Shown in pieces: positions 19,099 through 45,790 of a stretch of DNA of 64,000 nucleotides. A model generated the notes under the pieces. That model saw only the letters and a list, made by a program, of their open reading frames with translations. It made no database searches and was not told where the DNA came from. Each line of letters begins with the position of its first letter. Position 1 is the first letter of the stretch. Origin of the DNA: Amphiscolops sp. MND2022 (taxonomy: Eukaryota); the NCBI GenBank assembly GCA_964187785.1, contig OZ076415.1, positions 21,018,001 through 21,082,000 of the forward strand, read 5' to 3'. The position numbers and the translations under genes were made by a program.

Positions 19099-19650
19099 CT
19101 GGGGTGTGGGATTTTCAGACCGTGGACCGAAACCCGTAGTGCCAAACCGTAACCCGTAAACCGTAGTTCTGAAAAAAGCGAACCGTACATATTTCTGAGA
19201 AATACGACCGACTTGTTTTATACATTTAACAGCAGTATTTCTGAGAAATACGACCGACTTGTTTTATACATTTAACAGCAGTATTTCTGAGAAATACGAC
19301 CGACTTGTTTTATACATTTAACAGCAGTATTTCTGAGAAAAAGACACGCGCACTAACTAGAAAAAAGTACGTTTCTGAGAATTACTCGTACATTGCCTTT
19401 GATTTATATTGTTCAACCATACTGTATATGATATTGGTTATTAAATGCGAAAATATGGATATTACTGGAGATTATTCGAGTATATATACACTTTCCACAG
19501 TTGAAAAGAAGGCAATCTGCAAGACATGTTCGAAAGAATACCAATACGATGCTCAGAAAATTTTTTCAACCCGTACCTTGAAACCGTAAACCGTAGACGA
19601 TTACCCGTAAACCGTAATTTTAATTCAACCCGTACGGTTCCACACCCCAG
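19099..19650. mobile_element. Non-autonomous hAT-type DNA transposon (552 bp)
   Basis: 11-bp TIRs CTGGGGTGTGG / CCACACCCCAG. 8-bp TSD CTTATATA (19091-19098, 19651-19658). The empty site has a single CTTATATA at 15947-15954. Subterminal (A/C)CCGTA reiterations. BED-like fragment KAICKTCSKEY. Confidence 0.92.
19191..19340. repeat. 46-47-bp tandem repeat, ~3.3 copies
   Basis: atttctgagaaatacgaccgacttgtttt(t)atacatttaacagcagt repeated head-to-tail without spacers. Confidence 0.93.
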
Positions 19651-22299
19651 CTTATATATGAATAGTGATGCTTAATTTTTGTTTGCCGAAGCTAAGCTTG
19701 TTGCGTCGTACAGTTGAACATCAAGCAAAGCTACGGCAATAAGTGCACGAACATCTCGTTTTCTTTTGAGAAAAAAAAACAATGGTGAAAGAATTGTTAT
19801 AAGAACATGCTCTATAACAATTCTGAACACAGTACTGTGTTCAAATTTTGAACAATCTAAATCTAAGCGAGCGTCATTTTTTTGACAAAATGAAAACTTG
19901 TCAGCTAACTTCGTTGGTTTCAAAATAGGTATAGTAGAGGAAGACAACGTTTTGAACTGTAATACCGGTGGCTAGTACATGTAGAAGCAAATACACTAAA
20001 ATAACAAGACGCAACTGAAGCACGAACTGCAATAAAAAATTGTCTGCTGTAAACGTTGTACCTTCGGTTCAGATCTCTAACTTTTGAACTGACGCTTTTC
20101 TGAAATGCCCTCATTAGGAATTTACACTACAAAATGAATAACAAATTGCGAATTCTTCAGTTTTTTCGTCGAAACAATATTTTTAGCAGTAAAAACTGAC
20201 GAATTCGCAATCTTCCACTCTGAACACTTTTTCTGGAAATGCTTTCTTGAGAAGTGAGCATGTTCACTTCTCAAGAAAGCATTTCCAGGAAAAGTGTTCA
20301 AAATGAAGGGGGAATGAGACAGAAGGTTCAAATACCATTATGTCGACATAGTTTGCGTTGAAATTTTGGTCCAATAAAATAATTGATGTCGAAAAAATCC
20401 TATTTTTTACATTGACTGTCAGTTAAAAGTTGCCCATTAGATTTTATAGCGGACCAAGTTTGCGCTGAAATATTGCACTTTTTATACGATTTTAGCTTGT
20501 TGCAAACGTGAATTTCTGCTATTTTGGACAGTAATATCAAAAAATTATGGTAATTTTTTGCCTGAAATGTCCAAACATTTGTAGAGACAATCCTCTAAGT
20601 ATTTACATTCATCTAATATTTTCTTATTAGTGGAATATTTTTATTTAGGAGTAAAATGTGCTTTCGTGTTGGGGGAAAATTCCCAACAAGGTTTACATGG
20701 GGGGAAATAGGTGACATGGTCCAAAATGAACGTTGACGAACGGTGTCAAAGCTACAAATTTGATTGCCAGATTATTATTTTCTGGCCAGTAGTTTTTGAG
20801 ATATTGCGTGATAAAAGTCAAAATTACCCGCCTTTATCTTCTGTATAGTGAGTTTTCTATTCTGGTTTTTGTTAGCAAAAGAAATTACGTTGCGAGCTGA
20901 TGGATTAAATTGAACCCAATTGATATTGGAACGGTTTCATCTGGGGTGTTCAGAGTACTGGACTCATTACTACTGGGTAATAAGTTTATAGTAGGGAATT
21001 CTTCATTGACGTCGTATGAAGAGTTAAGATATGCTCTGATCACTTAAATTGGAGTCAAGTTGAATCGCTGATTGGTGGTTGGTTGAAGTTATGGTGGTTG
21101 TATTTCCATAGATGCAAGATTCCTGAGGAATACCTAATGCATGAAAACATAGAAGTTTTCCGTTTCAGGAAGAAATTTCAAAAAAACGTTTGCGAGAAAA
21201 ATGGAAGTGTCAAAAGTCGCTGAAAAAAAAGAAGAAAAATGTAATTGCATATTATAGTTGGAATTGCGCCTGTATGCCTTTCAGGTATTGGTTTTCTCGA
21301 GAATTGTATGGAGTTTATGATTTTACATTACGATACACATTACGGTAACGAACTAGCAGGATCCTGCTAGTTCGATTTTTGTCCAATCAGAGCGCGAATA
21401 TTTTTTTGGAAGTTTCACACTTTACGCGCATTACGCTAAATGATTTTACTAAAATTAGTAATTTGCAGTATTTGCAAAATACGAAGGTTTTATCGATCAG
21501 TTGAAGGCTGGTTTCTTCATTTTGTGCAAAAAGCAGTTAATCACGGAAAAATAAGAATTGAATTAAATTAAATTTCCGGTGGACAAATACTTCATACCTT
21601 CATACTTAGTAATCTCTACATTTATACAATCATCAACGAAGTTACAAATTAGATATTGGAACATAAGGATGCAGTGACAGGGGCAATGCTTTACTACACT
21701 ACCCCTAATTCAATTCATGTTTCAGGAGACTGAGTCTGTGCAGGATTCAGAGTTTTCTTGTAGAAAAATTCACAAAAGTACTTAAGATGAAGGCAAAACT
21801 GTTTCATATTATGTTTTGCGCACTAGCATGTTCGAGTAGTGTTCCTGTGTAACACAGAACGAAGTGCAAAAAAACTATTACAAAGATTTTCTCTTCAGTA
21901 TAGATTACAAGGATATAGGTCGGAACTACTAAGAAGACAATAACAAACGAAGTTCTGTGGCTTACGAAATGTTTTTTTTTAGTTTTTCAAAACAGCACAG
22001 AAGTTCAAGCCGTGGAATGGTGAAAAACCGAAAGGAGAGAGCTGAAACGAAGGCACAACCCACGCCGCGCCCTTTGTACTACGTTTCTGGATCCGATGAA
22101 ACATCTCAAATCCCATGTTTCTTCACCGTTTAAGAAAAACAAAAGTAGGAAACAACTAATACTACTAACATGACGAAACTTGTCATTTGAGGTTTTGAGT
22201 TTACTTTCTAACAATTGCATTCTTCAGCGCTGCATTGTCGATAATATAATTTTCTAAGATTACATGAACATAACTAATAAATGATGACTCGGAGTTTTC

Positions 22300-25681: not shown

Positions 25682-27953
25682 AGTCTGATACCTACTTCCA
25701 GACTGTTTGAAGCAAACTAATTAGGGAAGAGGGTCAGCACAGCCACTAAAAGAGAATTGGTCAACTGTAATTACCAGTTCCATGTCTAAAAAAGACGATA
25801 TGTCTATTCGTACCAACCTTAGTTTTATATAATTACAACGTTATGAATCTGATTCAACAGGTTAGTTCCAAAACATTTTTTGAAGGTTTCATAGATTTTA
25901 TATTTTGTTATTTTCCCATATTTTGGCATTACCGTGTAAATCTTTTTGTGAACGAAGTTTGCTTCATTCCAACGCTCTTGATTAGTTTTAGTTGAAATGC
26001 ATAAAATATCTATCACAGACATGCTTAGAGCTTCCATAGTTAACTTTCCGGTATGAATTTTCATAAATAAATCAGGCTATGATCATGGTGATTAGCGATG
26101 ATTCGAATGTAATGAAAATAAAGTAGTTTCGTTTCTTCCTGAAATTAGTAAACTATCGACCCTTCAGCTACATTTGCGAATCTAAGTTGGTATTGAAACC
26201 AGAACTAAATACCGAAAACATGCCTTTTGATTTGAAGCCTCAGCATACAGTGTAGTTGACTCCCCAACCGAGAACATTCCAAAAACTTGGATCAATTCAT
26301 GACTTCTGCATGTCTCTGGATTGGATACGCTTCAAGCTGCAGGTAGCAATCAAAGAACTGCTTTACTTTTTTTCATCTATTAATCAGCTGCTGAAGAACC
26401 GATTTTGCAAGTCTCAGTGAAATCATATCAGTACATTGCGCACGCCGCTTGAAACTCAAAACGAATTGAGTCTTTTGAATATACTGAGAAGCTGTGGTTA
26501 TGACAACTTTGAAATTATTCATAGGAGAGATACTTCACACGGAAGAAACAAAACTTTCCGGACTGAACTGTGATTCTTTGGTCTCATATAACTTTGCAAA
26601 TTGAGTAAGCATGATGGATAATAGAACAAGCTGGGAACGGCCCTAGTCGGCCACTCGTGGCACACAATCCGCAAAGTCAACCTACTATTGCGTCTTTTTT
26701 CAACTTCAATAAACTTTTGTATGATTCATTGGACCCCTTTAAATCTCTAAACGTGATTAAGTTGAAACAGTTAGCAAAAAAGTTAACGTACCAGAGAAAA
26801 ATATTGAAACAAAAAAAGACGATCCAATCAAATTAGTTCAAAAAACGTTTGACTGCTAAAAACTATGAAACTCAAAACAACGGAACACCAATTAGTTAGA
26901 AAATTTTCTGTCACAATGGTCTCGCAAAAACACACTTTCAGCATTGCACCTGTCTCTCCAACCTTGCTATGTGAAGTTCATGAAATTATGAATGAAAGTG
27001 GCCATTTCAGGATCATTGCCAAATCAGAAACCAAATGCCACTGTAAGCACCGACTAAAAGAGTTTGAACCAATCGACTTGTCTTTTGACTGTAGGCAAAG
27101 ATCTGATAGAAATAGGATCATTCGGATACTATTTGTGTTTTGGAGGGGTGGAGGACAATTGACTCAAATAATTAGACTCGTTGCCTTCCAAAATGTGCTA
27201 ACTAAAAGAGCGGTTGTATGACTGGCCAAAATGTCAAGGTTGTAGCTTTGCTCGCTATTCTGAGAGTCTACAGAACTCTCCCTAACTCTCCCTGACCAAC
27301 AAAAATACATTGAATAACATCCATTCTGGAAGAATTAGGCTGTGTTTTGCAGCTTCATTTTGGCATTCAACGGTTCTCTAACTCATTAGTCTGATTTGGA
27401 GATGACGAATCATCTTTTCAGCAATTGCCGCATTTGTAGCTTGCTGACTCTCAGAATCAGCAACCTATAAATGCGGCAATTGCTGAAAAGAAACTCACAG
27501 GCTGTGAGTTTAAATTAATTGACTTCATCCAATATTCTGGACATTTGGCTAACTGATTCCGAATTCATCAACCTAGCTGTTTCAGCAGTCTTTTCCATGT
27601 CTCCCTCATTATTAATGTTCCATAATGATCTAAATCTTCCCCATTTGAATTTGCATTTCAAGTAATCCTACGGAAAGTAGTTCTGCCTCTATTTCTTTTG
27701 GAATTGAGTCATTCTCATACTCACTTCACAGGAAACATCTGACTGACGATAACGCTTTTCAATTGCATTTGCTTTTTAGTGGAAGGAATTTGAAGAACGT
27801 ATTGAGTTTCATTCCCGAATTGCAATTGTCTTCAGAAAAAAATGTGAATTTTAACCTCCGGTTCAATATAATAGAGAGAAGCAACAAATCAAGGTAGCAA
27901 ACAAATGGTTTCGAAGTTGAGTGCATTGGAGGAACAAAACGGGTGTCCCCACC

Positions 27954-29433
27954 TCTCGCGATTTTGTTCGCTACTATAAGAGTCTACTGAACTCTGGCGA
28001 GACATTTGTCTGCTATTTTCCTGCATAAAACACCTTTTGGGACAATTTTCCCACGTTTTCTGAGTATTTTCTGCTTCGGGGTTCCGTTGTAGCCCACTGG
28101 ACCTTTGGTCCTCCATGGTGAAATTAGCTCTTCCATGCATTTCCAACGTATTTTGAATAGAAGGAAGTACGGTACTAGTTATTGCTGATGTTATCGCATC
28201 TTGTATTTGGGAATTTAGACTAGTTTTAATTTCATTGAGTCTTTTGACATCGGATTAAAAATTTCCTCATTATTCAACCTAGTCGTTTCAACAGTTATCT
28301 CACTGTTTTTTCTACTATTGGTGAGAAGTGACCTAAAAACTTCTCCTGTTAAATTAAAGTTTCTCTGAGTCCAAGTTCAGTTCATTTTTACTCTGATCAT
28401 CTCTATCCTCATTTCTTGTATAACTTCCTAATATTACATCAACATTTTCCACATCAGACATAATGCTCAACTGTCTCAATCGCCTTTCCCTAGCTTTTTG
28501 CTTTCTAGTAGACGGCATTGAAGAAATGTAGTAATTTCTAATAGTGAATTGAAGGACAGTAGGTACAGATCAATAAACAAGCAAAGTTGATCACAGTTCG
28601 AAATTCAAAAGATTGAAATATAGCAACTTGTTTGTGGTTCGGTAATGTCCAAAGAAGATCCTGGAGTCTTTTGTCGCACCTATTTATAGTTGGGAGGAGG
28701 TGACTGCACAAATATTGCGTGTCATGTTACTAAAAATAGCATCTCGTAGGGTTGCATCACCCTGTTGTCATCATATCAAAGAGAGGGGGCTTGGCGGTAA
28801 AGCCGACCAGATGGGAAAATGGTTACAAAGCTTTACATGTAGGTTCAACTCTAATCTACAACATTACATGCATATCAAATACAAAATTTCATGCTGAGCC
28901 TAACAATTCACCGTAGCGGACTTCAAGTCCGCGACGCCACACTCAAATATAGTACTGGCAGCACCTGCGTACTAATTCCACCGTGGTGGATGTTCCGTCC
29001 AAGGAGCTACATAAATGTACTGCTCTCTGAATGGCCAATAATATTAGGACAGCGAGTACAATTATCTAGAACAAGCGTTCATTTGAACTCATTTCCTCTT
29101 CCGCATCTAATTGCACTTATTTAATTCATCAATTTACATTCGAATTACCAAAATACATCAATTCCCTAGCAACAAAACAGGCACATAACTATTTGGTAAT
29201 TAGGTAAATATAGCCCCGTAAACATAATTTTCATTTGTGTTGTGGCCATAATGGACCGTAAGTCTTCTATAGTGTAAAAATAAAATGACACCAATAACTA
29301 TAAGATTACATGCATTACACTGTACTATCAGTCTTTTGTTATCTAAATTGGTAGAAGTCCGGGTGGGGGTTAGTATTATCTCCTTCTAGTGAGATTTGAT
29401 AACATTTACTGTCGCAGGCGGCAGCCTGCGACA
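27954..29433 (-). repeat. 3' LTR of element B (1,480 bp)
   Basis: Colinear with 41669-43153. Plus-strand ends are TCTCGCG (mutated TGTCGCA) and TGCGACA. TATAAATA on the minus strand at 28681-28688. Confidence 0.93.
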
Positions 29434-30192
29434 CTCCCCTAGGGATGAAAAGCACTCTCCCCTGGTCCATTCCGGCAAGATAGGCATTCCTTCTTCTTTG
29501 TCGTTCATCATATCTTTCTCCACGATAAGTTGTTGATTCCAAATATTCCAGTACATCAGTTTCTTTTATTTGCTCATAGCTCCGACTACATACAATACAG
29601 TCTCCATATTGTGCTTGATTGGGCTGACCACATTGTGACGATATTCTCACACTAATCCCTTGTATATGCGCATTAGGTTGAGTTGTTGGTGCGGTTGTTC
29701 GGGTGTAATGTTGCCAAAAGTACCGTTAGTCGGCCCCCGGTCGCAAGGAGGAGGAGACAAAGGCGTATCAACAAAGGGTGTCAATTCAGCACAATGTTTA
29801 ATGGGAGGGCTGTTGCTTCGAATTGATGTGCTTGGGCCAGCTCCAATGTCAAGCAGGTTCGACTGATCGTCCACTTGTTGCATTATGCTATCAAACTCAT
29901 CCCAAGGAAAGTTGGGGTGATCGTCGATGACACACTGCGATGTGTCCACCGTCATTGCTCGTCCTGCCTTTAAGTCTTGGGGTTGAATGGGCACGTGACG
30001 GTAGCATGCGATAACCTCTATATCACTGTCATCTGAGGCATTGCCCAAAGTTTCCACCGACTGTACGTCCACCTCCATTTCTTCATCAGGAGAGTAATTG
30101 CTAGGGTTATCGGAGAAGCAGAAAGATCGTCCAACTGGAATTGTAGGTTCATTTCCATTTTGTAGCAGTTTAAGAAGAATTTTTTTAAACAA
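29339..30192 (-). pseudogene. Sense accessory ORF-X of element B (two ORFs joined by one frameshift, ~285 aa)
   Basis: A 181-aa acidic/Pro-rich ORF overlaps a 103-aa ORF with a Cys cluster (CGQPNQAQYGDCIVC). The frame runs through the PPT into U3. Function unknown. Confidence 0.55.
29434..29440 (-). promoter_or_regulatory. Polypurine tract AGGGGAG
   Basis: Abuts the TG start of the 3' LTR on the minus strand. Confidence 0.8.
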
Positions 30193-31241
30193 TTTTCAAG
30201 GATTGATTGAACATCTGAATTTCGCGGTTAGTTTTGGTAGAATGGTCTCCTTTCGCCCAGCGGACTTTGGGTCTTTCCTCGTTTCGCAGGAAAACTTTAG
30301 GCGGGAGAATGTTGTCAGAAGTTTACTAGTTATTTTCCGTAAAACTTCTATTTAGGTGATATCAACCTCTCCACCACACTTTTGTTGATGAGTCCTAACT
30401 TATGAGTCTTAACTGATGAGTTAATAGACCTTCAAGTGCCTTTTGATTTGTTTATTCAGTAGCCAAGATGTTGTTAATCGTATCTACAAGTGTTTATCAT
30501 CACTAACTACTGGTAAATAGTTACACCATCAAAGACCATTGGTCTGCGTGGCTACATCAACTGAATTGATCGATGGGGTGACGTTTTTGAATGAAAGATG
30601 AAAACTTGAGAAAATGAATAAAATGACAATTTTGTCTGAACTAATACTAATCCACGAAGCAAAGTAGAGGCATGAATTTCACTGGCAGGTTCCATCCATG
30701 ATAAAAGGACAACAATTGTGTGATAATACAAACGATGTATAAAATAGTAGTAGGTAATTTTAGATGAAAGGGTTGACTTTTAGGCCACGACGTCCAGTAC
30801 TATTTTAGGTAATTAACCGTCTTGGGGTCTTCGTATTTCTAGTGGTTAGTTTGACTTTAAAGCCAATTTTGTTCGTAATAAATAGTAATAACGCCGTAAT
30901 ACAGTCCACGTATCTGTGTCTGTCCCCAGTGACCCACCAACTGTCTGGTTTACTATTTGAATTGTCAGTCACACTTCCTATCCCCACCAAATTATCTCTC
31001 CAATTTACCATGTTGCGGACGCCGAGTCTTCCCAGTCACATGAGAGGTCATCATATCAAGAGAGCGCATTGCAGAAGAAGGGACACCATAGAGACTGGTA
31101 TTTTGACAGCGTTGGAGACAACTTTGAGGCAAGAAATGTCTGCTTTTCCGTTATGGAAGTAACATCATGTTGGTTCTTTGGTTTTGTCTAGTCTGAACTT
31201 GATCAAGTTTTAAACCAAATTATGATTTTACTTCCTCCTTC

Positions 31242-34200
31242 GTGAAATATTTTCAATTAAACTTGAATGAAACAAACTTTACTTCCGGACGATTTGAAAA
31301 AGCGGTAAAATGGACTTGTAAAAGTGAACCGCGCGAAATTATTTCTTTTCGTTTAGGCAAAGAATCAAATGACCAACCACCTCAAACGTTACTTGGTACT
31401 GGTAATACCATTGAAGTCCCCAACTCTTCCCAATCTACTCCCAATATTACGCCTTCTGGGACAGCAGGGAGAGATACTGATCTTACTCCTACGCAGGAGT
31501 TGGTTGAAGAAGCTACATTATCAAATTGGCTGCCTTCTGCAATTCAAATCATCAAAAAGAGCTCAGCCCAAATCTCAATGGAGCTTGATTCCGGAGAAAA
31601 GTCCTCTCCAGCTTCCGTCGCCGAACTGGACCCAAGAACCCAAAGGCCACAGTCTCCTGACTATTCGCCGTCACTATTGCAGCTCCTTGGCACAGATTAC
31701 AGTAGCTCTGTGGAAAAAATCCAAGCGTACTTCACCAGCAAATTGGTCAATCGAGAAGAAGAAGAGATTGGTGAGCCTGAACCCCTCAGTCAGCAGAACA
31801 TGGTGTCCAAGTTAAGTGTAAGCGATCCGATCACCGTTACCCCTGCCGTGAATTTATCGGCTGATTCTCCTGGTTTTCCTCCGGCTATACCTGCTGTTAC
31901 GTTCTTGGGCCCTCCGTTGGCTAATTGTAGTCAGCCAGAAAGTGAACATTCTCGTAGTTCAGCGAAGAGACCCAGAGCAGGAAGTTGTTCCACCTCCGGG
32001 ATTCAACCCCCTCCTAAGTTTGGGGTGATGTCTCCCTTGATCCGACATCCATCAGCCGGACAAAGAACTGACTCTGCTGAAAGAGATACGGCAATGAACC
32101 GTAAGGAATATCACAGCACTTCTGCCGTTGAATCAAAATCCGATCCTGATGTTGTTACTGATTCCGCTGGTTCTACCATTGCTCAGGCTTTAAACCCCAA
32201 GCCTCTAGAGATTCACTGTGAGTCAAGTGACACTGACAGCTCATTTGCTCCTATCAGATTCCAAAGGACGTCCAAATATTCTACCCTTAAGCCCAGCGGT
32301 GGTGCACTGATTAAGGAATACTTTGCTGGCGCCGATCGGTTTTTCTTCCCTAAAGGTCAGCCTCTAATTTTTTTCACTGTGGACCAAGTTAGCACCGTCT
32401 TGAAGGTTGTGGCCGAGGAGAATGCCAGGTCCACACAGCTTATGTTAGAAGGGATTTATCAAACAAGCCAGTGAACTTAACTTGGGACCTGGAGACAATC
32501 AATCTCCTTCTCCACCTAAGACTACAAGTGCAGGAAGACCCAAAAATGGTAGTTCGGCTTCAGGCCGATTCAGTGACACGAGCGGCGCTCTCCGTAGCGA
32601 CGATGATTTTTTGAGCATTGGGTACTCCTTCGAAGGTCAGGATCACGAAGAGATTGCCGCGCCTCCACTGACAACAGACAAACCCAGCTGCAGCCATACA
32701 GGCCCTGGGACGAGTCAAGCAATTTTCGACGCAGACAGCCCTGGCGGGCAGACCTTGGCTTCCCTGAAGTCTGAAGCAATAAAAGACTGAACTAAACGGT
32801 CTCGCGGCCACCGAGGCCGTTTCACTCAGGCCAGTACGACCCGTGGGACTAGAAGGGAAGTGACCAGGTTGTGCAAGGTTATGAAGGAGGCCTACTTCAA
32901 AGGCATGGAGTGGACGAGAACCTTCGTCTCTGGACCTGTCGACCCGAAGTGGAACTGGTACAAATTTTAATGTCAAATTTGTGAAGCCAACATCTCTCTT
33001 TTTGGGAAGGGAGCCAGGGAAATTTTGCGCCGCCACTCAACTGAGAAACACCTCAGAAAGGACCAAAGGTGGAGGCACGAGTTTTTGTACAAGATCGATT
33101 CCGTAACAAAAACTCAATTCCATTAAGCTAGAGGAAACGATGGCAAGTTATTAACCCCCTACCAAATGGAATTAGAACTTCCGAAATTTATTGATGCCGA
33201 GTTGGTTGAGATTGGTCCAAAGCTTCCGTTCACGATGAATACATGTCCGGAATGGACTATATGGCATCGTCATCCGATAATAGAGCCTGAATCCAGCTAA
33301 CTGTACTTGGCCGATTCCTCCCATCTTATGGAGACCTTGAAGTGTTAAAACGATTCTGGAGCGACGTTGGGGTTATCGTTAACCACCAAGCTCTATTCAC
33401 CGACTTTGACTGGAGCAAGGAGTGACTGACTGTAAGTATGCTTTTATACTCGTTTTAGCATTACACCGTTTAGTATTGTTACTTCAGTCCTCGTTGGTTA
33501 TGACTTTTACTTTTCTATTTAGGTCCGGGAGACTGCAGGGCCAGAGTGATGCTGAAATCTGCTTGATCTTCTACATCATGGGAGCGATCTCAACTAAACC
33601 CAAACTAATCAGTTGTACCGGGAGTGGCGCACGCACGGCCCAGCTTCTCGACCACAGCCCTTACAGCTCTTTCAGTGTGCAGAATCCTGCTCGCTTCGAA
33701 GAATTGACCTTGTAACAGCTCATGCATCGGAAAAGACAGAGCGTTTTTGGACGGGTGGATTTCTTCCCCACAATGCGCTATTTAGTTGTGTCATTTTGAA
33801 TCAGTTTGGAACTGGGCTGGGTATTGCTCTCTCCCGAACTTTCTAAGGTACAATTCTTTTTGTAATCACTAACTTTAGTCCATTAGGTCTTTTGATATCA
33901 AGGGCGGCAGCGACTTCAAATCACTTTTGTTTTCCTAGGCCATACGGTCCTGCCAACTGGATGTTAGTGGGCTACCAGCAATATGCCGCGAACTTCTCGA
34001 CAATTGGGCCAAAGTTCACTCATACCTCAGTAAAACTGCTCCTTTCCAAGAAATGCAAGGAGTCCGTAAACAGGTAACCATCTTATTTCTCTTCTAGCCT
34101 TAGAGACCTTGGGTCCCGACCGGTTCAAATTATTGATTGTTGTAGCCCCAGAATCTGGAATGGTCAATTGTGTATGACAACCTCATTCCCAGTCGTCTTG

Positions 34201-35448
34201 AGTTGTTTTATCGCCTTGTACAGGACTGTAAGTGGAGATATCATTGTAATCAGGTTCCAACTAATTTCCAGTTTCCATCAAATTTCCTTTTCAGATACCA
34301 GTAGTTTTACCCTCAATTTCAAATCTCGGCGTGACAGTGGGTTCCACGTTCACAAATAATTATGCCAATTTCTATTCAAACTCGCTCGCAGGTGTATTTG
34401 TCCCAGTTGTCTCCCTGCTGAGCATGACAACCCAGGGATACTCAAGTGCTCTTTCCCACTTGCCAAAGCTTTGGTCGTTGAGGACTTCATCACCCGGTCA
34501 AAACTAGGGGCTAGATTTGAAGTTGGATGTAAACAGAAGGCTGAAAAAGAAGGTGATGGGGATAGGAACAAGGGGTTAAGTTTTGAAGAAATAACCGCCA
34601 ACAATGTTGAAGAGTTTGACCGATCAGCCCGCGGGTACGTCGTCTACCTAATAGGAGCTACACAGAAAATCAGCCGCTTCACCTCCGACATCGTTAAAGG
34701 TCTGGGTTCATTCGATATGGAAATTTTATTAGTGGACCTTATGGTACAGACCTCTTAATGTTTCAAACAGCTATTTACTAGCTTTAGGCTTCGTGGTGTT
34801 GTCGATTATTCAGAAGAATATGTATATGCTGACGAGTATCTTTTTTAGGTTGACGAGTTGAGACGTCTACATCCAGATATGCAGCAACCAAAACTTCTGA
34901 GAGCCGATGCTGTCGATTTCACTACCGGGCAAGAGGCTTTGAAGACGAGGTGTCATCTAACCAGAATCTTCCGGCTCAGCTGCCTCTGTCTCGACGAACC
35001 GAGGTTCAGCTTCCCTTCCCAGTAGTCAGATTTGGATCAGTAAAGACAGACGACCCAACCTGCTGTATGTTTGACGTAGTTGCCTCTATTCAATCATTCC
35101 TTGACCACGGGCTTCGTGGAATAGATATCTTGACCTCTGATTCTTCCATGACTGGTTTCCTTGCTCTTGAACGGACTTGAAAGCACCTACAGTCCTTGTG
35201 AAAGCGTTGACCACTTTGGGCGCTACCAAATTAGGGAAGGCCTCAATTCCTGTAGACGAACATCAAAAGGAGCAGAATCCAGTCGAACGAGTCCTAACAA
35301 ATCACCGAAGGTAGTCCGGATATCTATGGCAAATCCACTTCCCAGCGCAGTGTTCTGGAGACTGAAGAGGCCGCCGTGTCAAAACTTAGCCATTCGAGTG
35401 GGGGTTACTCTAAACCATAATTGTACTTCATGCACTCTTATGCAGTAG
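31242..35448 (+). pseudogene. Antisense multi-exon accessory gene of element B: Ser/Pro-rich N-terminus, BED/TTF-like zinc finger, helical C-terminal region
   Basis: 410-aa ORF continues in frame past isolated stops to EWTRTF..F*CQICEANISLFGKGAREILRRHSTEKHLRKD. Short GT-AG segments restore the frame when removed (34744-34770, 34822-34848). Confidence 0.7.
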
Positions 35449-35579
35449 TCTTTCTTCTTATGTATATATTTTCGTTGCATTTATTCATTTCAGTTATTCA
35501 CATTATACTTGTTGTCTGCCAGTCAGTTTGGTCCCTGCTAAGGTATTCATTTGAAAGAGGCAGTAATTTACGTATCGGT

Positions 35580-38500
35580 CTAGTATCTGTATTCATCAGT
35601 AAAGTTGGGGGTGGGGTTAGGACGAAGATTTTATTTTCCTCCCCTAAGGATTTCGTTTTCTACACTCGCATCATCGTTTTCATCATCTAATACTTCGGGC
35701 ACGATAGTGTCGCTCCCTCCTGTTGATTGTTGGCCATCAAGCTGGTCATTTGTGCGTCCTGAACGGGTTTTTTCAAGCGAATCAAAAATTATCATTTCCG
35801 TGAGGCCCGGTGGACCTTAGGTCCACGTCCGTGAAAATTTCGTCTGGCGTGCTGGCATCATTGACGAGATCATTAGAAGTGTCTAGGGCTTCTCGACGCG
35901 TAGGAATTGAGACTTCTTCTGTTGAATTGGAAAATTCTCCAAAATTGGTTTCCCAAGTGATGACACACAGGTCGTCATGCGGAATAGTGATTTCGTCGTC
36001 CAGTTATAAATTGCCTTCCGGTCTAATGTCTTGTAGGACGGTGTTCGGTTCATATTTATGCAGTCTAATACGATGTAGAATCTGCGTTTTGTTGGAATTT
36101 AGTTTTCTGACTATGTAATGTTCGTTCGGTAAGACTTTTTCTACAATATAGGGTCCTGTTCATCTGTATTCTCAAAACAGAAATTTCGATCTTTGGTGGT
36201 CAGCGACAGTTTGTAATATGAAACAATAGTCGATTTGCTTCAAAGAGGCCGCTTTGACCTTTCGGTCGTAGTATTCTTTGTATTTCAAATAGGATTGCCT
36301 AATGTTTTTTTTGTGGAATCTAGTAATATTTGCGTGCGTCGTTGAAATTCGTCTGCAAAATCTGTAGTCGGAAGGACTTTTGGGTTTGAATTAAGGTCCA
36401 ATTTGTGATCTAGTTTGTTATATGGAATTCGTCCGTGAAAGAATCTGGATGGTTCACAGCCCAGGGTGGCGTAATGAGTTGTATTATACTTTAATTCAGC
36501 TAGAGGCAAATATTTATGCTATTGACGCCGGTAGTCTCCTGAGGCCATTTTCAGGTTCGTTTCGAGGCTAGCATGAGTACGCTCTAGTTTACCAGTTGTT
36601 TGTGGATGATTTGTAGTTCCACATTTGATATGAATTCCCAAAATTTGATCGTTTTCAGCCACCGACTTGGACGTAAAGGCCGTACTTTTGTCTGTGATCA
36701 AAGTAGTAGGCAAGTAGGTGTGCTTGGTCATTATATCAATGATAACTTTTGCCATGTTTGTGGCCGAAGCGTCGGTTCCTGGGTACGCAAAAAGGTATCT
36801 TGAAAACATGTCCATTGCGGTTATTATGTTTTCATATCTTCCACTTGCAAGTAGGTTAGGCAACAAATCAATTTGCATTGCGTCCTCTTGACCTAACTCC
36901 CATTCGGCCAATTAAGTTTGGGATTCTTTTGTCATTTTTACAATTTTTGCATCCTTGAACACCTTTTTCAACGAATTTTGCAATGCCAGAATAATAATAT
37001 TTTTGTCGATTTTCGATGAGCATCTTGGAAATTTCCGGATGTTTATTAACTTTTTCGTGTAAGGATTCAAGTAGTTCCGGGACCAGATGTTTTGGTAAGA
37101 GCACTTGATTGTATTTGATAGATCCCGTTTCATCAAAATACTGTCTAGTGGTAATTTCGTGACGGACGAACAGTCGGTCCATTTGGCGACAGAGATGTTG
37201 GTAGCGGTTATCTTGCAATAGGATGGTTTCTGAGTAGTTTTCTTTCAGTATTTTGAGTCGCAATTGTTGCAAAACGACGTCGTTGTTTTGTTCTGCTGCT
37301 ATAGAGTTCGTGTAGGATAGTTTTTGAAAAGTGGTACGTTTGTGATAATCGCGTTTATGTGTAGTAAATTGTTCGAATGAGGTGTCCGGTAGTTGATGTT
37401 TTGGGTGATTCCTAGTTTCCATTTTACGTTGTAAATTTTGTTCTTCCGTCTCGTCGTCATCCTTCGTATAAAATATTTGTTCCTCTTCTGACACTCCTGC
37501 CGATTGGACGTGTAGTTCAACCGGTATATCTTCTCTAGTTCTGAGGATCAATTTTTCTTTCGAAGAGTTTTCGAGACGAGACAAGCGGTCGGCGGCTGCG
37601 TTGTTTTTGCCTGGAATAAGGGCAATTGTGAAATTGAATTGAATGACATAGTCACATGCATTCCATAGTGTTTGTGGAATGATTTTTGTTTTAAAAAATT
37701 ATGTGACTGATTTGTTGTCGGTAAGTATAATCACGGGATTTGGAGTTCCCCAAAAGATGTGTCGAAAATCTTTAAAGGCAAAGAAAATTGCCAAGAATTC
37801 TTTTGCGTAGATGGACATTTTCAAATGGGTTGGACTAAAGGTCTTGGATCCATTAGCTACTGGTGCAAAAGTTTTCATCGTGGAAGTGTATTTTTCGAGG
37901 GGATCATCTTCGATGAGAACTGCGTACCCTGCGGCCGAAAAGCTAGCGTCAGTCATAAGGGCTATTTGCTTATTCGGTAAGGGTTGTTTGAGTGCCAGCA
38001 TCGGTCAAAAATTTTATTTTAATCAGTGAAATTTTCCAATAGGTCCGGTGTTACCAAGACTTTTTCATCTTTAGTTAGCATTTTGAAAATCGGTGTTGGT
38101 TTTTCCGAGAGCCTTGGGATATAGTTCCTCTAATAGTTTAGGAATCGCAAGTAACGGTGGAGTACCTTCTTTGATTTCGGCAACTTCCTATTTTCTAGGA
38201 AGTTTTGGACCCGTGGTCTCTGCGGCTTCACTCCAGCAGGAGTGATGGTACGTCCCAGAAAATAAATTTCCGTTGCACCAAAATGGTATTTATGCTTCGT
38301 TAGTTTCAGACCAGCTTGTTGAATGCACTGAAATGTGGCCCTCAGGTTGTGTATAAGTTGTTCGGCATCGTTGGCAGCGTTGCCAATATCATCAACATAT
38401 TGGGCACATTGGTCTGCTTTAATGACTGTCCAAATATTCGCGCATGAAACTAGAAAAGGCCGATAGGGCTCGACTAAGTCTTTGTGCCAATCTTCGGTAT

Positions 38501-40430
38501 GCGAAGAACCTGCTGGCGAAGTTGAAAGCAAGCATTTCGATGGACGCTGGTCAGCCAACTGTAGGCAGTGTTATGTTGCAAGCAGTCTAAATTGCAAAAC
38601 AGCTTTTTCCCAGCCATGTGTTGGGCTGCATCTGTGAATGTACTCACGGGGTGGGTGTTATTTACAAAATCGTCGGAAATAAGCTCGTAAATTTTGCGCA
38701 AATCAGCTAAAAGTTGCAGTTTGCAGTTAGGTTTCTTTTGGGCAAATATTGGGCTTGCGTATTTGGAGACTGGGAGTGTTGTAATTATCCCATAGCGATG
38801 TTGAAATGCTAATTCTACAAGGCCGTCTTCCTCGAGGTTGATTAGTGCTGGTAAACTCTGACTATAGGCTGGGGAGTCATCTTTTGGTGTCAATTTGACC
38901 TTGACGTTCTCGTTCATACCTATGTTAAATCAATGTCCTCCTAATATGTCGTGAAATTCGACAGGTAAGTCTTCTATGCGCGCAATTTCAGCAGGTTGTA
39001 GCATAGAGTCTGTCCAGTCAAAGTTAGACAAAACTGTCGTCTCGACTCAGGGTTGTCCTGAGGATTGAGTTTCTCTAATTCTTGGAGATCGATTAGTTTG
39101 GACAAAATCCTTTTCTGGATTGGCGTGTGATGTTGAGGGTCCCCAGGGTCCTCTGGTGTGGGAAACCAGTAGTTTTTTTGAAGTCCTCAGGTTTTGTAGA
39201 TTTGATCAAGCTGCTTGCATAGTAAGCAGCATTCTCAGGGTTATCCTGCAAGAGGTGCCATGTGGTCACCGGATCTATAGGTTTGACATATTTCATCTGT
39301 TCTGGTGTCAGGACAGTAAAAGTGGCTACTTGCGTGCCTCTTTCGAGGGTGTATGGCCTGTCAGTGAAGTTGTTCAGATGAAAGGATACTTGACCAATGG
39401 TTAAAGTGACTAGAGCGGCACAGAAGGCAATATCGCCGTCATCTGTGAGGGTGCTGCTCGGTTGAAGGATCCCAGTAACTGTAGTGTCTTCGTACAGTTG
39501 TGAAGCTAGTGTCGGTCATAAGATGGGTTGGTTACATCCTCTCCAATGCAAATGGGTTCCATGATGTTAGTATTTTTGAGATCTGCAGTTTTTAATTGCA
39601 TTGAAAATAAAAGGGAATCTCAGGACACTTTGTCCCATGTCCAGAATGGTGTTGTTCCGTTGAAGGAACGAAAGACCAAACTACGGACTTGTGAGTTTTT
39701 CCATGACTATGAAAATTTCCTGAAAATCTATGTCGCCAACTTCAAGTTTCAATTCGATTGTGCTTTTCCGATTTTCCAGCAGCCCGTTTGCAGCCATCAT
39801 TTGGAAATTGAGTGTTGGGCCCTCTTTGATAATAGACTGAGGGGCTAATAGGCGGATTTTACGTAGATCAGCTTAAGGGATTGCACTAGATAGAGGTCCT
39901 GTGTCTACAAGGCCATCTAAAGTTAGTTCGCCGAAAGTCATTTTAAAATAAAGCATTCGTCGTTTGTATTTGAGGCCAAGATGGGATGTCAGCGGTACAG
40001 AGTCTGGTTCGCCAATTCTGGTGACTACGGTGTTTACAAAACGTGCTGCAACTGCTGTAGCCAGGGAGACCTGTGGTCCTCCACGGTGAAACTCGTCATC
40101 AGCGCCGGGCGGGGTTGGTTGGTGGATGAGTTGTTCACCGTGTTGCCATTGGTCGACTCGAGCATTTCCAAGGATGGTATTCAGAGCTTGGTCTATTTCG
40201 GTAGAATCAGGCTCTACGTCCTGTTCTGGTTTGTTGTAATTGTTGTAAAAGTATAGATGATGTTGATTGTAGCAATAAGCCTCCCAGTAGGGGTCAAAAC
40301 TATAGTCAGAGTCAGGGTAATATAGAATATAGTCATCAATGAAAGGTATAAGACGTATAGTCGAAGTATCGTTTTGTAGTCTATTGGACATAGGGTCCAA
40401 AGTGGTGGGAAAATTAGGTGGAGTCTTCAT
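35580..40430 (-). pseudogene. pol of element B (PR, dUTPase-fold-like spacer, RT, RNase H, integrase)
   Basis: LVDTG (~39900); KYASPIFAQKK; AQYVDDIG (~38390); LMTDASF; MDMFSRYLFAYP; GKLERTHASL; CEPSRFFHGRIPYN; end motif NLRPNPTPNFTDEYRY*. Confidence 0.95.
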
Positions 40431-40539
40431 CTGCTGCTGCCAGTCAGCTGATGATATTTCTTTGAGAGTTGTATATTACTCATTGAAATAAATATTGAAG
40501 GGTCAGATATTATATACTATCTGACACGGAGTTTTTCAT

Positions 40540-42251
40540 TTATTTGTAGTCGTGGCAAATCTCGTTTGTTGGGATTTCTAAGATTGATGTCGTCTTCTTA
40601 TTTTCGTCTTCTGGGCTGGTATACGTATCGGCAAAGGTGGTGTCCTCCAGTTTAAGATTTTTGGGCTTGAGGTGGGCACCAGCGCCTTTCCAACACCGTT
40701 CCGCCGGGTTGTTCGTTTTGTCGCAAGTTGGACATTTTGGATATTCTTTCTTGGTATCCTGCCCGTCATTGCGTCGTTGTTCCTCCTTTCTTTTGAATTT
40801 TCGGCAGTCATCTTTGACATGCCTAGGTTTTTTGCAACAGTTGCAAGTAACATTTGGATCTATGCCAAAAGAAAGAAGGCCAGTTCCCGGTTGTGTTGCT
40901 GTAGGGGCAGTGGACATTGTTGGTAGTGGAATGTCGCCCCCCTCCTCAAGTCCATTGAGCTCAAACTCACGTTCTAAATGAGTGACTCTTTCCTCCTAGG
41001 TTGCGTTTTCAAGTCTAGCCATATTGACGGTGCGTTTCCATTTGGGTGGCAATTAGGCATAAAGAAGACTGTCGATCATGGCCTGGGCATTCCCGCCAAA
41101 CGCTTTTTCAGATTCTTGATTGAATTCCTCAAGGATTTTTGGCAATTTCAAAGTAGTTGGATCAACCACCAAACTGTGCCATTTGTGTTTTTGGCGGTCG
41201 CCTGGGACACGAGTTTGACGTATTTCCGACGAAATACTGCCAAGATGTCTTCCAAAGTTTGCCTGTTTGCCGTATTGATGTTACGGAAAGTTTGTAACGC
41301 ATTCTTGCGTAACAATGAATGATATGGTTTGGTTTTCATTGTTTCATTCATATCAGGTTGCATTTTTATCATGGTGTGAAAGAGGTACTCGAAAATATCG
41401 AATTTCTCCGATTTGCGGTCAAACGTCACTGTAGTCGTGCGATTTGGGCGTACCATCAGTGTTTGTGCTGATGGGCGGTAATTCATGCCAACTAAAACTT
41501 CTGCAAGACGGTCGATGGGGTCTGAAGGAGTAGTTTGGCTTGCAGGTTCCTGGACCTGTAGGCCATGGTCCAAAGACTCGTCTACATTAGAGTTTTGATG
41601 TTGCAGGGGTTCACGGGAGTGCATGGGCCATCCAGTGAGAAACTCAGTAAGGTTGGCTCCTGTCACCATGTCGCATTTTTTTTCGCTACTATAGGAGTGT
41701 ACTGAAATCTGGCGAGACATTTGTCTGCTATTTTCCTGCATAAAACACCTTTTGGGACGATTTTCCCCCGTTTTCCGAGTATTTTTTGCTTCGGGGTTCC
41801 GTTGTAGCCCACTGGACCTTTGGTCCTCCATGGTGAAATTAGCTCTTCCATGCATTTCCAACGTATTTTGAATAGAAGGAAGTACGGCACTAGTTATTGC
41901 TGATGTTATCGCATCTTGTATTTGGGAATTTAGACTAGTTTTGATTCCATTGGGTCTTCTTGAAATCTGATTAACAATTTCCTCATTAATCAACCTAGTC
42001 GTTTCAACAGTTATCTCACTGTTTTCTCTACTATTGGTGTGAAGTGACCTAAAGTCTTCTCCTGTTAAATTAGAGTTTCTTTGAGGCCCGCCAGACTCTG
42101 AGTCCAAATTCAGTTCATTTTCACTCTGATCATCTCTATCCTCATTTCTTGTATAACTTCCTAACATTACATCAACATTTTCCACATCATACATAATGTC
42201 CAACTGTCTTGATCGCCTTTGCTTAGCTTTTTGCTTTCTAGTAGACGGCAT
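40540..42251 (-). pseudogene. gag of element B, starting inside the 5' LTR
   Basis: ATG of MPSTRK at 42251. Capsid-like TFDRKSEKFDIFEYLFHTMIKMQP. Two knuckles CNCCKKPRHVKDDC and CPTCDKTNNPAERC after a frameshift. Confidence 0.9.
41657..41668 (-). promoter_or_regulatory. Primer binding site TGGTGACAGGAG
   Basis: Immediately follows the LTR CA end. Resembles the complement of tRNA-Leu(CAG) or tRNA-Trp 3' ends; primer identity is unresolved. Confidence 0.8.
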
Positions 42252-43153
42252 TGAAGAATTGTAATAATTTCTTGAACGACAGTAGGTACAGATCAAAAAA
42301 TAAGCAAAGTTGATCACTGTTCGAAATTTAATAGATTGAAATATAGCAACTTGTTTGTAGTTCGGTAATTTCCAAAGAAGATCCTGAGTCCTTTGTCCCT
42401 CCTATTTATAGTTGGGAGGAGGTGACCGCACAAATACTGCGTGTCAGGTTACTAAAAATAGCATCTCGTAAGGTTACATCACCCTGATGTCATCAGATCA
42501 CAGAGGGGGGCTTGGCGCTTAAGCCGACAAGATGGTAAAATGGTTACAAAGCTTAACATGTATGTTGAACTCTAATCTACAATATTACATGCACAACAAA
42601 TACAACAATTCATGCTGAACACAATGATTCACCGTAGCGGACTTTAAGTCCGCGAGGCTACACTCAAATTTAGTACTGGCAGCAGCCGCACACTAATTCC
42701 ACCGTGGTGGACGTTCCGTCCACGGAGCTACATAAATCTACTGCTCTCTGATTGGCTAGTAATATTAGGACAGCAGGTACAATTAGCTAGAGGAAGCGTT
42801 CATTTGAACTCGTTTCCTCTTCCGCATCTAATTGCATTTCTTTATTTCATCAATTTGCATTCGGATTACCAAAATACATCAATTTCCTAGCAACAAAACA
42901 GGCACAGAACTATTTGCTAATTAGTCAATTATAGCCCCGTAAACTAAATTAATATTTGTGTTGTGGCCATATGGACCGTAAGTCTTCTATAGTGTGAATA
43001 TAAAATGACACCAATAACTATAAGATTACCTGCAACACACTGTACTATCAGTATTTTGTTATCTAAATGGGTAGAACTCCGGGTGGGGGTTAGTATTATC
43101 TCCCTCTAGTGAGATTTGGTAGCAATTACCGTCGCACGCGGCAGCCTGCGACA
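41669..43153 (-). repeat. 5' LTR of element B (1,485 bp)
   Basis: 7-bp inverted termini TGTCGCA..TGCGACA. TATAAATA on the minus strand at 42403-42410. Confidence 0.95.
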
Positions 43154-43869
43154 CCACCCTTCCGGGAATGTGGCTATTCATACTTTAGGGAACATGACAC
43201 CAGGAAACTGAGTGTCTTGTCACTAAAGATAAATATTGCGTCATTGCGCCTAATTAGTGACTAAGATTAGGTTGACATCATTCATGACTTATCATCTAGA
43301 AATAACAACAAGATTATAATTTCGTTTCACAACAATTACATGTTTATAACTGTTAAAATAGCACAAAGCGTCACTATGTCGAGATATTAACATGTTACAG
43401 ATTGGTTATTTGCATGCAAGTTTTTAAAATCAACAAAATGGACGTCAAATCTTTTCGACTACAGCTGAATAACAATACAATAACAATACTGCATATTCAA
43501 CGATAAGATTGGCTCGTACAATTGCGGTAAACTGGTCAACTGGACTTGTCCAATTGAACGCGTTTCTTTTTCTCATTACAGCCATTTCAATTAATTCTAA
43601 TCTAATTCAACAACAATTTACACCGATAATAACTGAACCTGTGAAGTATAGCACCTGTTCATCTAGAGTATTAGCGTTGATCTGAGTATTAGAATTGGTA
43701 ATACTGAAACGTAAAGCAACCTTACTGAATAAACGAAAAGGTTAACATGAAATTATTATAGGTCGTTCATTTCAGTTTTGTAATAGCACCCGGGCGGACA
43801 CAAGGTCGGAATTCTTGAAATCGTGAGAATACCGGGGCAGCACTGAGTTATCGCCTTCAAGAGATATTT

Positions 43870-45790
43870 GATAATGGTCGTCGCAGGCGGCGACAGTCGA
43901 GCAAAACTTGCAGTAGACAAACTTGCATGAACGTTCTTGCAGAGCAATTTTCCGACAACTATACCCCAGATTTTTCAGAGGAAACTATTTTTTTTATATA
44001 CTTTAAAACTTTCTTTTACGAGATAGGTTAGAAATAAGTAAAAACACTGGTGGTCCAAGACTTTGAATATGGACTGCGAATGTCGATAATGTGGATCTTG
44101 TCGATGTCTTGACTAAAACCACTTTGGTTGTAAAACAGTTTGAAAATGGAAAAAAACGTACATTAAAAGCTTGGCAACTCAAAGTTCTTTGGATATTTCA
44201 CTTTTTCCACAGCTACTGTCATTTCTTAAAATGAAGGCCAGAAGTTTGATAATTTTTTCTCGAGGGAATTTGTGAACGTGACTGGTGTTTCGATACACTC
44301 GAATAGCTTGGGACCAAGAATGTCTTGAACATGGATCACCAAAATTGCCTAGGTTTTAAACAAAATTTGAGTTTTCTGCTTGAGTTTGAAGTAATTTTCT
44401 CATGGTGTACCTTTTTTCAAGTAGTTCGTATGTACCTCAGGTTTTTCTCACGATTCCGTGATTTTTCAAGGTGTTTCGCACATACTTTTCTGATTGTGTT
44501 TCAGTAAATGTTGGTATTTTGGCAAGAACATGAAAACATTATTTGGTGTCGAAACCTTTAAAAATGGTTCAATGGGTCAAAGGTAGATTTTGAGTTCTGC
44601 TTTAAAAAGTAATACATATTTATGTTGAAGTTTTATGTGTAAATTGTTGCATCTGAACTTTCGCTCACAAAATATCTTGATAATTTTCAAAACTTGTTCA
44701 GTATAATCGAGAATTTTTGCCTGATAAAACGTTTTCCACCTTGAACATTATTTACAACAGTATTCATGAGTACCACTAATAAAAGGTGTTGTATTTCATA
44801 GTATATTCTAGTATTTTTCATAATAATAGTGGTCCTTTACCACCACTTTATAGGCGAAGAGATGTTTGATAATTGCTGTCGCAGGCGGCGACAATCTAGC
44901 GAAACTTGCAGTAGACAAACTTGCGGCATACAAACTTATAGTAGACAAACTTGCATGAAAGTTCTTGCAGGACAATTTTCCGACAACTTCACCCCAGATT
45001 TTTCAGAAGAAACTATTTTTATTATATACTTTAAAACCTTCTTTTACGAGATAGGTGAGGAATAAATGAAAACACTGATGGTCCAAGACTTTGAATTATG
45101 GACTGCGCGTGTCGATAATGTGGATCTTGTCGATGTTTCGATTAAAACCACTTTGGTTGTAAAAAATATTGAAAATGGAAAAAACGTACATTAAAAGCTT
45201 GGCAACTCGAAGTTCTTTGAATATTTCGCTTTTTTTCATAGCTACTGTCATTTCTTAAAATGAAGGCCAGAAGTTTGATAATTTTTTCTCGAGGGAATTT
45301 GTGAACGTGACTGGTGTTTCGATACACTCGAATAGCTTGGGACCAAGAATGTCTTGAACATGGATCACCAAAATTGCCTAGGTTTTAAACAAAATTTGAG
45401 TTTTCTGCCTGAGTTTGAAGTAATTCTCTCATGGTGTACCTTTTTTCAAGTAGTTCGTATGTACCTCAGGTTTTTCTCACAATTCCGTGATTTTTCAAGG
45501 TGTTTCGCACATACTTTTCTAATTATGTTTCAGTAAATTTTGGTATTTTGGCAAGAACATGAAAACATTATTTGGTGTCGAAACCTTTAAAAATGGTTCA
45601 ATGGGTCAAAGGGGGTTTTTAAGTTCTGCTTTAAAAAGTTTTACGTATTTATGTTGAAGTTTTATAAGTGTAATTTGTTGCATCGGAACTTTCGCTTACA
45701 ACATGTCTGGATAATTTTCAAAAAGTTTCCAGTATAATCGGAAACTTTTGCCTGATGAAACAGTATTCATAAGGACCACTAATAAAAAGC
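43870..45790. repeat. Tandem duplication of a ~1.03-kb unit
   Basis: Paired 60-aa spurious ORFs at 44325 and 45354 (offset 1029). Both units start at gtcgcaggcggcgaca. About 90% alike by eye. Confidence 0.9.

What the first reader, a model, noticed from the sequence alone, without database searches (positions are those of the whole stretch)
27954..43153. 15.2-kb Gypsy element carrying ~6 kb of extra genes between pol and the 3' LTR
Seen: TSD, both LTRs, PBS and PPT enclose 29434-35580, which holds two divergently oriented genes around a ~1-kb spacer (30200-31240). The antisense gene ends ~130 bp from the pol stop. I found no TIR pair or internal TSD marking the cargo as a nested insertion. 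Inference: a complex retrotransposon with its own accessory gene cassette and internal bidirectional promoter.
Basis: partly seen in the sequence, partly recalled or inferred. Interest (0 to 1): 0.72.

Follow-up and report, generated by a model that had tools for sequence, protein, structure and literature searches.

The report
Retrotransposon with swappable disarmed-transposase gene
A large, recently active group of copy-and-paste jumping genes carries two extra conserved genes, one written backwards with predicted introns and swapped between relatives like a cartridge; its protein likely descends from a cut-and-paste transposase that lost its cutting residues and would now act as a DNA-binding helper of the element.

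Summary
Confirmed and extended. The window holds a decayed 15.2-kb Ty3/Gypsy element (LTRs 89.6% alike, TSD CCACC). The 6-kb pol-to-3'LTR region is a lineage-wide cassette, not a nested insertion: 20 of 20 elements picked by integrase alone carry both genes, and 40 of 40 cassette-picked loci lie next to pol or the sense gene (127). The antisense gene has five predicted GT-AG introns; four keep position and phase in 37-39 of 41 copies. Synonymous sites are saturated while replacement sites are not. It encodes a disordered arm, a BED-like finger, a predicted RNase H-like fold and a helical tail, collinear with hAT transposases but without the DDE residues. hAT descent is likely (about 0.7); only the finger match is significant. 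The gene moves intact between near-identical gag-pol backbones, with its border inside the spacer, which suggests two back-to-back promoters. The 270-aa sense gene is not env-like. Function is inferred; no RNA data. Closest known: plant Retand/Grande antisense ORFs. This scan noted the same gene earlier on other DNA of this genome.

The parts
27949..27953 (.). target-site duplication, left copy (CCACC)
27954..29433 (-). 3' LTR, 1480 bp; starts TGTCG, its last bases are mutated (GAGA instead of GACA)
29434..29440 (-). short purine run in the PPT position; it is also coding sequence of the sense ORF
29339..30158 (-). sense accessory ORF, about 270 aa in intact siblings; acidic N-terminal part, conserved Cys/His C-terminal domain, no transmembrane segment, no family match; frameshifted in this copy; ends inside the 3' LTR
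30159..31152 (.). spacer between the two divergent genes; E2F-like site near 30228 (15 of 18 family representatives have one in this 130-nt zone); swap border of the antisense cartridge near 30530 (mapped in siblings)
31153..31168 (+). antisense gene, predicted coding exon 1 (16 nt, ATG)
31169..31356 (+). predicted intron 1; unusually conserved, with CCGGAAGT in 17 of 18 family representatives and an alternative in-frame ATG near its end in many siblings
31357..33431 (+). antisense exon 2: long disordered arm, then Cx2C...Hx5H BED-like finger (about 32968-33060) and helices
33432..33522 (+). predicted intron 2 (phase 0)
33523..33847 (+). antisense exon 3: predicted RNase H-like fold in relatives; 159 bp deleted in this copy at 33525
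33848..33938 (+). predicted intron 3 (phase 0)
33939..34073 (+). antisense exon 4 (135 nt in 16 of 18 copies)
34074..34145 (+). predicted intron 4 (phase 0)
34146..34227 (+). antisense exon 5 (82 nt in 18 of 18 copies)
34228..34294 (+). predicted intron 5 (phase 1)
34295..35420 (+). antisense exon 6: all-helical domain, weakly like the hAT insertion and C-terminal domains; end placed by alignment to siblings
35580..40588 (-). pol: protease, dUTPase-like segment, RT, RNase H, integrase; broken in this copy
40540..42251 (-). gag; its ATG lies inside the 5' LTR and the frame runs through the PBS; broken in this copy
41655..41668 (-). PBS-like motif, conserved across families; priming tRNA not identified
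41669..43153 (-). 5' LTR, 1485 bp, TG...CA
43154..43158 (.). target-site duplication, right copy (CCACC)

Best explanation
This is a decayed copy of a large, recently active Ty3/Gypsy lineage that carries two selected accessory genes between pol and the 3' LTR, one of them an antisense gene with five predicted introns that is exchanged whole between elements and likely encodes a catalytically dead, hAT-transposase-derived DNA-binding protein that would help keep the element transcribed. Shown: cassette in all siblings examined, conserved exon-intron signals, purifying selection, whole-gene swapping, no conserved DDE. Follows from established retrotransposon biology: introns on the opposite strand are not spliced out of the genomic RNA, so they survive each round of reverse transcription; the gene needs its own promoter on an integrated copy. 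Inferred: an ancestor took up a hAT transposase gene (or a domesticated one) in reverse orientation, lost the TIRs and catalytic residues and kept finger, fold and a long disordered arm. Inferred: the protein acts in trans as a sequence-specific activator or anti-silencing factor. Its binding sites would lie in its own cartridge or in motifs shared across families rather than in family-specific U3, because one allele occurs with unrelated U3 and one U3 with unrelated alleles. Inferred: template switching between co-packaged RNAs swaps the cartridge at homologous points after the pol stop and in mid-spacer.
Against: No match to any hAT is significant beyond the finger: HH probabilities 0.1-4.8% for exon 6, exon 2-3 and the whole gene, no Pfam hAT family in 125 members scanned, no PDB sequence hit. 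The Hermes row for exon 6 is rank 50 and Hermes is not among the 50 best VIA rows for the N-terminal model. The catalytic positions are placed by eye. The models are middling (pLDDT 58 and 69). The long hAT ORFs fetched from this genome are uninterrupted, so the introns have no known source. Free reassortment against U3 (86) argues against a VANC-like lock-and-key with the LTR. Nothing here tests binding, transcription or splicing directly.
Confidence: 0.5

Rival explanations
1. Same origin, other job: the dead transposase is a cofactor of the integration step (tethers the cDNA-integrase complex to chromatin, aids nuclear entry or steers target choice) rather than a transcription regulator.
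For: Finger plus transposase scaffold suits DNA or chromatin tethering; allele swapping could shift target choice; such roles are proposed for plant antisense ORFs (PMC7264820, parts 1-2).
Against: The gene reassorts freely against integrase (15 of 20 strong splits conflict), which a tight partner would resist; TSDs show no obvious shared sequence.
Confidence: 0.22
2. The protein is a selected accessory factor but not hAT-derived: a finger and an RNase H-like fold from another source (another DDE superfamily, a host gene or an unknown virus).
For: Only the finger reaches significance; best VIA hits are pelota and actin-like RNase H folds; five introns look like a host gene.
Against: Four weak signals fall in hAT order on Hermes or native hAT profiles; no host gene outside elements among 40 loci.
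Confidence: 0.2
3. The cassette restrains the element: the dead transposase is a repressor, or the antisense transcript mainly feeds small-RNA silencing and copy control.
For: The antisense gene ends 130-160 nt from the pol stop, so read-through would overlap pol; antisense regulation is discussed for micropia and others (PMC7264820).
Against: The protein is under strong purifying selection in a very abundant, young lineage; an RNA-only role needs no 1300-codon frame.
Confidence: 0.06
4. A passenger: a nested hAT transposon or captured gene riding neutrally.
For: The window copy is broken throughout; within-family pairs show dN/dS near 1 (0.36 and 1.05).
Against: Present in 20 of 20 integrase-picked elements, no TIR, pN far below pS between families, introns kept in phase. 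Within-family values reflect decay after insertion and are the same for pol.
Confidence: 0.02

Closest known systems
Plant Retand/Tat elements with antisense TRP28 (PF04195) ORFs; maize Grande gene23, rice RIRE2, fungal Boty (PMC11963269 abstract and passages; PMC7264820 parts 1-2 of 3)
   Same: Ty3/Gypsy; long pol-3'LTR region (2.9-6.6 kb there, about 6 kb here); antisense ORF in nearly all copies; own antisense promoter shown for Grande; DNA-binding role proposed.
   Different: No TRP28 match here. Those papers report no similarity of the ORFs to other transposons and I saw no intron in the Retand text ('intron' 0 hits). Here the gene has five predicted introns, a likely hAT origin, whole-gene swapping and a second, sense gene.
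hAT transposases (Hermes, PDB 8edg, 4d1q; native hAT ORFs of this genome) and their dead derivatives
   Same: Order finger, helices, RNase H-like core, helical insertion, C-terminal domain (weak, collinear).
   Different: No conserved DDE, no TIR, a 470-residue disordered N-terminal arm, carried by a retrotransposon; sequence match not significant outside the finger.
Transposon-encoded regulators TnpA (Spm) and VANC (VANDAL) (bioRxiv 10.64898/2026.08.24.746577; PMC5735166 abstract)
   Same: Accessory DNA-binding factor inside a mobile element, fast diversification between families; TnpA derives from a transposase.
   Different: Those sit in DNA transposons and their function is shown; here the carrier is an LTR retrotransposon, function is inferred, and the gene does not track the LTR.
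Animal LTR elements with extra ORFs: rotifer Vesta (PMC5408684, listing only), planarian Burro (PMC6431247 passages), C. elegans Cer1 CERV (PMC10309623, listing only)
   Same: Gypsy-type elements with extra coding capacity; Burro also has a dUTPase-like segment between PR and RT.
   Different: As far as the passages and listings show, the extras there are not a spliced antisense gene; no transposase-like cargo is mentioned.

Membership tests
Ty3/Gypsy LTR retrotransposon | pol order PR-RT-RH-IN | tested here: met
   Pfam on window fragments and on an intact sibling pol
Ty3/Gypsy LTR retrotransposon | paired LTRs with TG...CA ends and 4-6 bp TSD | tested here: met
   window; 5-bp TSD exact in 25 of 28 elements as printed, two of the rest off by one base in my border call
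Ty3/Gypsy LTR retrotransposon | PBS matching a tRNA, and a PPT | tested here: inconclusive
   conserved TGG motif behind the 5' LTR, tRNA not identified; purine run 7 nt in the window's clade and absent in the second clade (86)
env-bearing Gypsy (errantivirus-like) | sense ORF3 with transmembrane segment or fusion-protein domain | tested here: not met
   maximum 19-residue hydropathy 0.78-1.05 in 4 of 4 proteins; no Pfam family in 23 members
Retand-type antisense ORF elements | [quoted passage not shown] | tested here: met
   20 of 20 integrase-picked elements
Retand-type antisense ORF elements | TRP28 (PF04195) domain | tested here: not met
   no hit
Retand-type antisense ORF elements | RT falls in the plant Tat/Retand lineage | not tested
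   no reference RT set on hand; trees hold only copies from this genome
nested hAT DNA transposon | terminal inverted repeats at the cassette edges | tested here: not met
   longest inverted match 9-11 nt, shuffles 8-11 nt, 28 elements
nested hAT DNA transposon | 8-bp TSD around the cassette | not tested
   no ends defined to test
nested hAT DNA transposon | copies outside the LTR element | tested here: not met
   0 of 40 cassette-picked loci lack both integrase and the sense gene (127); a sample, not a census
hAT transposase (active) | conserved D, D, E | tested here: not met
   column counts in 39 copies at positions matched by eye: A21/E11, T20/S14, E24 of 39
hAT-derived protein | N-terminal BED-type finger | tested here: met
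   hhalign P 6e-4 to native hAT fingers, reversed control 0.22 (102); C2H2 finger PF25420 below cut-off in 43 of 59 (72)
hAT-derived protein | RNase H-like core | tested here: met
hAT-derived protein | helical insertion and C-terminal dimerisation domain (PF05699) | tested here: inconclusive
VANC/TnpA-like regulator | sequence-specific binding to own element and activation | not testable with these tools
   needs DAP-seq/ChIP and knock-down

The most novel reading that the evidence does not exclude
A retrotransposon lineage domesticated a DNA transposon: it keeps a dead, spliced hAT transposase as an exchangeable cartridge with hundreds of deeply diverged alleles, re-dealt among shared gag-pol backbones, and uses it as an anti-silencing factor in an arms race with the host. 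This could help explain why LTR elements fill such genomes.
Probability: 0.35. Interest if true: 0.88.

Novelty: new variant of a known kind. Interest (0 to 1): 0.7.

Why it matters
[quoted passage not shown] Here the origin is traceable with fair odds to another class of mobile element, the gene has a conserved exon-intron structure that an RNA-copied element can keep only in reverse orientation, and natural swaps give matched pairs that differ only in this gene. Those pairs make its function testable by comparing expression, chromatin and insertion sites in existing genome data. If the hAT origin holds, it is a case of one transposon class domesticating another's enzyme. My searches found no paper describing it (open-access library only; Repbase-type annotations were not searchable).

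Tried and rejected
No RNA holder listed for the cassette: no evidence either way. ESM Atlas gave no answer twice. Two-copy complex of the finger-to-core part: no answer. Pfam on 125 antisense and 23 sense members: nothing above cut-off. PDB sequence searches: none for the antisense gene, only chance rows for the sense gene. Foldseek and VIA for exon 6: no clear hit; Hermes not in the 50 best VIA rows for the N-terminal model. PF14291 search rang nowhere. Native hAT loci fetched: Ac-like, DUF659-like, Tip-like and CGGBP1-like groups (group names recalled); hmmsearch of the antisense profile found nothing significant. A closer hAT subgroup that I recall from memory was not among them. Rfam: no match at E 0.1 in 27900-43200. 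Conserved RNA structure in intron 1: only a few pairs on either strand, rejected. A sixth intron, reported in earlier scan notes: not seen among conserved GT/AG columns of 18 copies in the tail or 370 nt upstream; the UTRs are otherwise unexamined. A splice acceptor in front of the sense ORF (env-like subgenomic RNA): none obvious by eye, not excluded. Lock-and-key coevolution with U3: contradicted by reassortment. Host taxon: an acoel flatworm is a recalled resemblance of the gag N-terminus only; no call tested it; PMC9911081 (passages) was read for context. Rows dropped: 2 of 41 copies from the profile; 13 of 41 loci without two clear LTRs; part was cut from view and recounted. Supplements of the papers were not read.
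Full report
1. Observation. The element lies on the minus strand between two CCACC target-site copies. The LTRs are 43153-41669 and 29433-27954, 89.6% identical, K2P 0.088. Pfam finds RT, RNase H and integrase in Gypsy order in the window's fragments and protease, a dUTPase-like segment, RT, RNase H and integrase in an intact sibling. Gag starts inside the 5' LTR. All genes of this copy are broken, so the analysis rests on siblings.

2. The cassette belongs to the lineage. A DNA search with the antisense region gave 624 first-look candidates; protein searches with diverged relatives gave 6,990 to 12,068 (candidates, not copy numbers). I fetched 40 loci picked by the cassette: 38 have integrase just upstream, 39 the sense ORF downstream, 40 at least one. 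Because that sample is biased, I picked 20 more by integrase DNA alone (20 of the 39 hits, leaving out 9 already known to carry exon 6): 20 of 20 have both genes, one with an internal deletion. Of 28 elements with two clear LTRs, 18 have LTRs at least 99% alike. Pol identity between families goes down to 60-66%, so the cassette is old. Relatives with best identity of only 31-44% to this genome exist in the protein collections, and the exon-6 profile finds 690 clusters at 50% identity. No TIR marks the cassette edges.

3. The antisense gene is split by predicted introns. In 18 close copies five GT-AG pairs align; exon 5 is 82 nt in 18 of 18 and exon 4 is 135 nt in 16 of 18; introns 2-5 are less conserved than exons 3-6. 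A spliced alignment with no preset intron positions placed introns 2-5 at the same codon and phase in 38, 39, 38 and 37 of 41 copies; 21 to 26 of each set are not a multiple of three long. The reference was a spliced model, so positions lean towards its junctions; the GT and AG signals at those points in families 30% identical do not follow from that. A 16-nt first coding exon with ATG was found in 25 of 27 copies (the donor was picked with the help of motifs in the intron); an alternative in-frame ATG lies near the end of that intron in 15 of 27 by the same script. Three copies have lost one intron exactly, which points to a spliced RNA having served as template. Splicing itself is not shown: no RNA run was listed. 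Earlier scan notes speak of six introns; I find five in the coding region. The product would be about 1,300 aa.

4. Selection. Over 715 codons from finger to exon 6, 14 of 14 between-family pairs have pS 0.77-0.84 and pN 0.10-0.31; RT has pN 0.004-0.04. The sense ORF has dN/dS 0.10-0.29 where it can be computed. Within-family pairs are near neutral for pol and cassette alike. 13 of 41 copies are free of stops and frameshifts over this stretch. Both genes are therefore kept as proteins and evolve faster than pol.

5. Swapping. Two elements are 90-99% alike except for a 5-kb block of 35-71% that covers the antisense gene; two others are 92-97% alike only in that block. In both pairs one border lies shortly behind the pol stop and the other about 1,100 nt before the 3' LTR, in mid-spacer. 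Trees of the gene's two halves have no conflicting strong splits (0 of 15, 0 of 19); against RT 16 of 20, integrase 15 of 20, gag 14 of 20 and the sense ORF 12 of 20 conflict (28 elements, FastTree support at least 0.95). One allele occurs with unrelated U3 and one U3 with unrelated alleles. The gene with half of the spacer is thus a unit of exchange. Template switching in co-packaged RNAs is the likely route (established for LTR elements; inferred here).

7. The sense gene. About 270 aa, acidic N-terminal third, conserved Cys/His C-terminal domain, no transmembrane segment, no Pfam or PDB match (41, 74), 42 homologues, all unnamed (23). It is not env-like. An E2F-like site lies in a 130-nt zone upstream in 15 of 18 family representatives against 0.03 expected (motif name recalled, zone chosen after inspection). 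My best guess is a small nuclear cofactor expressed from its own promoter; this is weakly supported.

8. Mechanism. Shown: cassette, splice signals, selection, swapping, lack of DDE. From established biology: an intron in sense orientation would be lost from the genomic RNA, one in antisense orientation is not, which explains why this gene can keep five. Inferred: the gene is transcribed from the spacer of integrated copies, helped by conserved motifs in intron 1; the protein binds DNA through finger and transposase scaffold and uses its disordered arm to activate or shield the element, as transposases and their dead derivatives do in plants (bioRxiv 10.64898/2026.08.24.746577; PMC5735166). 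Allele diversity and swapping would then reflect escape from host recognition. Confidence in the whole chain 0.5; in the cassette as a selected part of the element about 0.95. Rivals: integration cofactor (0.22), non-hAT origin (0.2), self-restraint (0.06), passenger (0.02).

9. Comparison and novelty. It is a Ty3/Gypsy element. It works like plant Retand and Grande elements, which carry antisense ORFs in the same place (PMC11963269, PMC7264820), but lacks their TRP28 domain and is not filed with them. It is not a nested hAT and not env-bearing. Six searches of the open library found no description of a spliced, transposase-like antisense gene in an LTR element. Five earlier notes of this scan report the same gene on other DNA of this genome, one of them also the swapping (read after my own tests; not independent support). 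Verdict: new variant of a known kind, interest 0.7.

Noticed in passing
window 42251-41669 and 28536-27954: The gag start codon lies inside the LTR, about 580-640 nt before its end, so every LTR carries the gag N-terminus; motif found in 23 of 28 elements.
   Followed up: partly
window 29339-29440: The sense ORF reads through the PPT and the first 90 nt of the 3' LTR; in the second clade there is no purine run at the PPT position, so plus-strand priming there is unexplained.
   Followed up: no
window 31169-31356: Intron 1 holds GGAAGY at 16 per kb against 1.3 per kb element-wide (112; motif chosen after seeing it) and CCGGAAGT in 17 of 18 representatives (120), the GABP core that drives bidirectional transcription in human cells (PMC2077898, passages). 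CGCCATTT in the spacer in 12 of 18 (YY1-like, name recalled).
   Followed up: partly
L073-L074, L077-L078, L079-L080, L041-L042: Single introns of the antisense gene are lost exactly in three copies and nearly so in a fourth.
   Followed up: partly
L039-L040 pol residues 353-437 (P0004): dUTPase-like segment between protease and RT, below Pfam cut-off (E 0.016).
   Followed up: no
28 full elements: gag, RT, integrase and the sense ORF also reassort against each other; the lineage behaves as a pool of modules within two deep clades.
   Followed up: partly
window 1-13555: Another Gypsy element, pol 37-74% identical to this lineage, in tandem duplications of 2.8 and 4.0 kb.
   Followed up: no
window 14200-21066: Duplicated blocks of 1.4-1.8 kb (97% alike) with 80-90 bp palindromes at 16508-16592 and 20216-20305.
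   Followed up: no
window 56130-57180; 43904-45761; 27413-27491: Six-copy tandem array of about 164 bp; an 830-bp duplication; a 39-bp perfect-arm hairpin.
   Followed up: no
L093-L098, L163-L173: The genome holds several hAT groups with long open transposase frames of 597-697 aa.
   Followed up: partly
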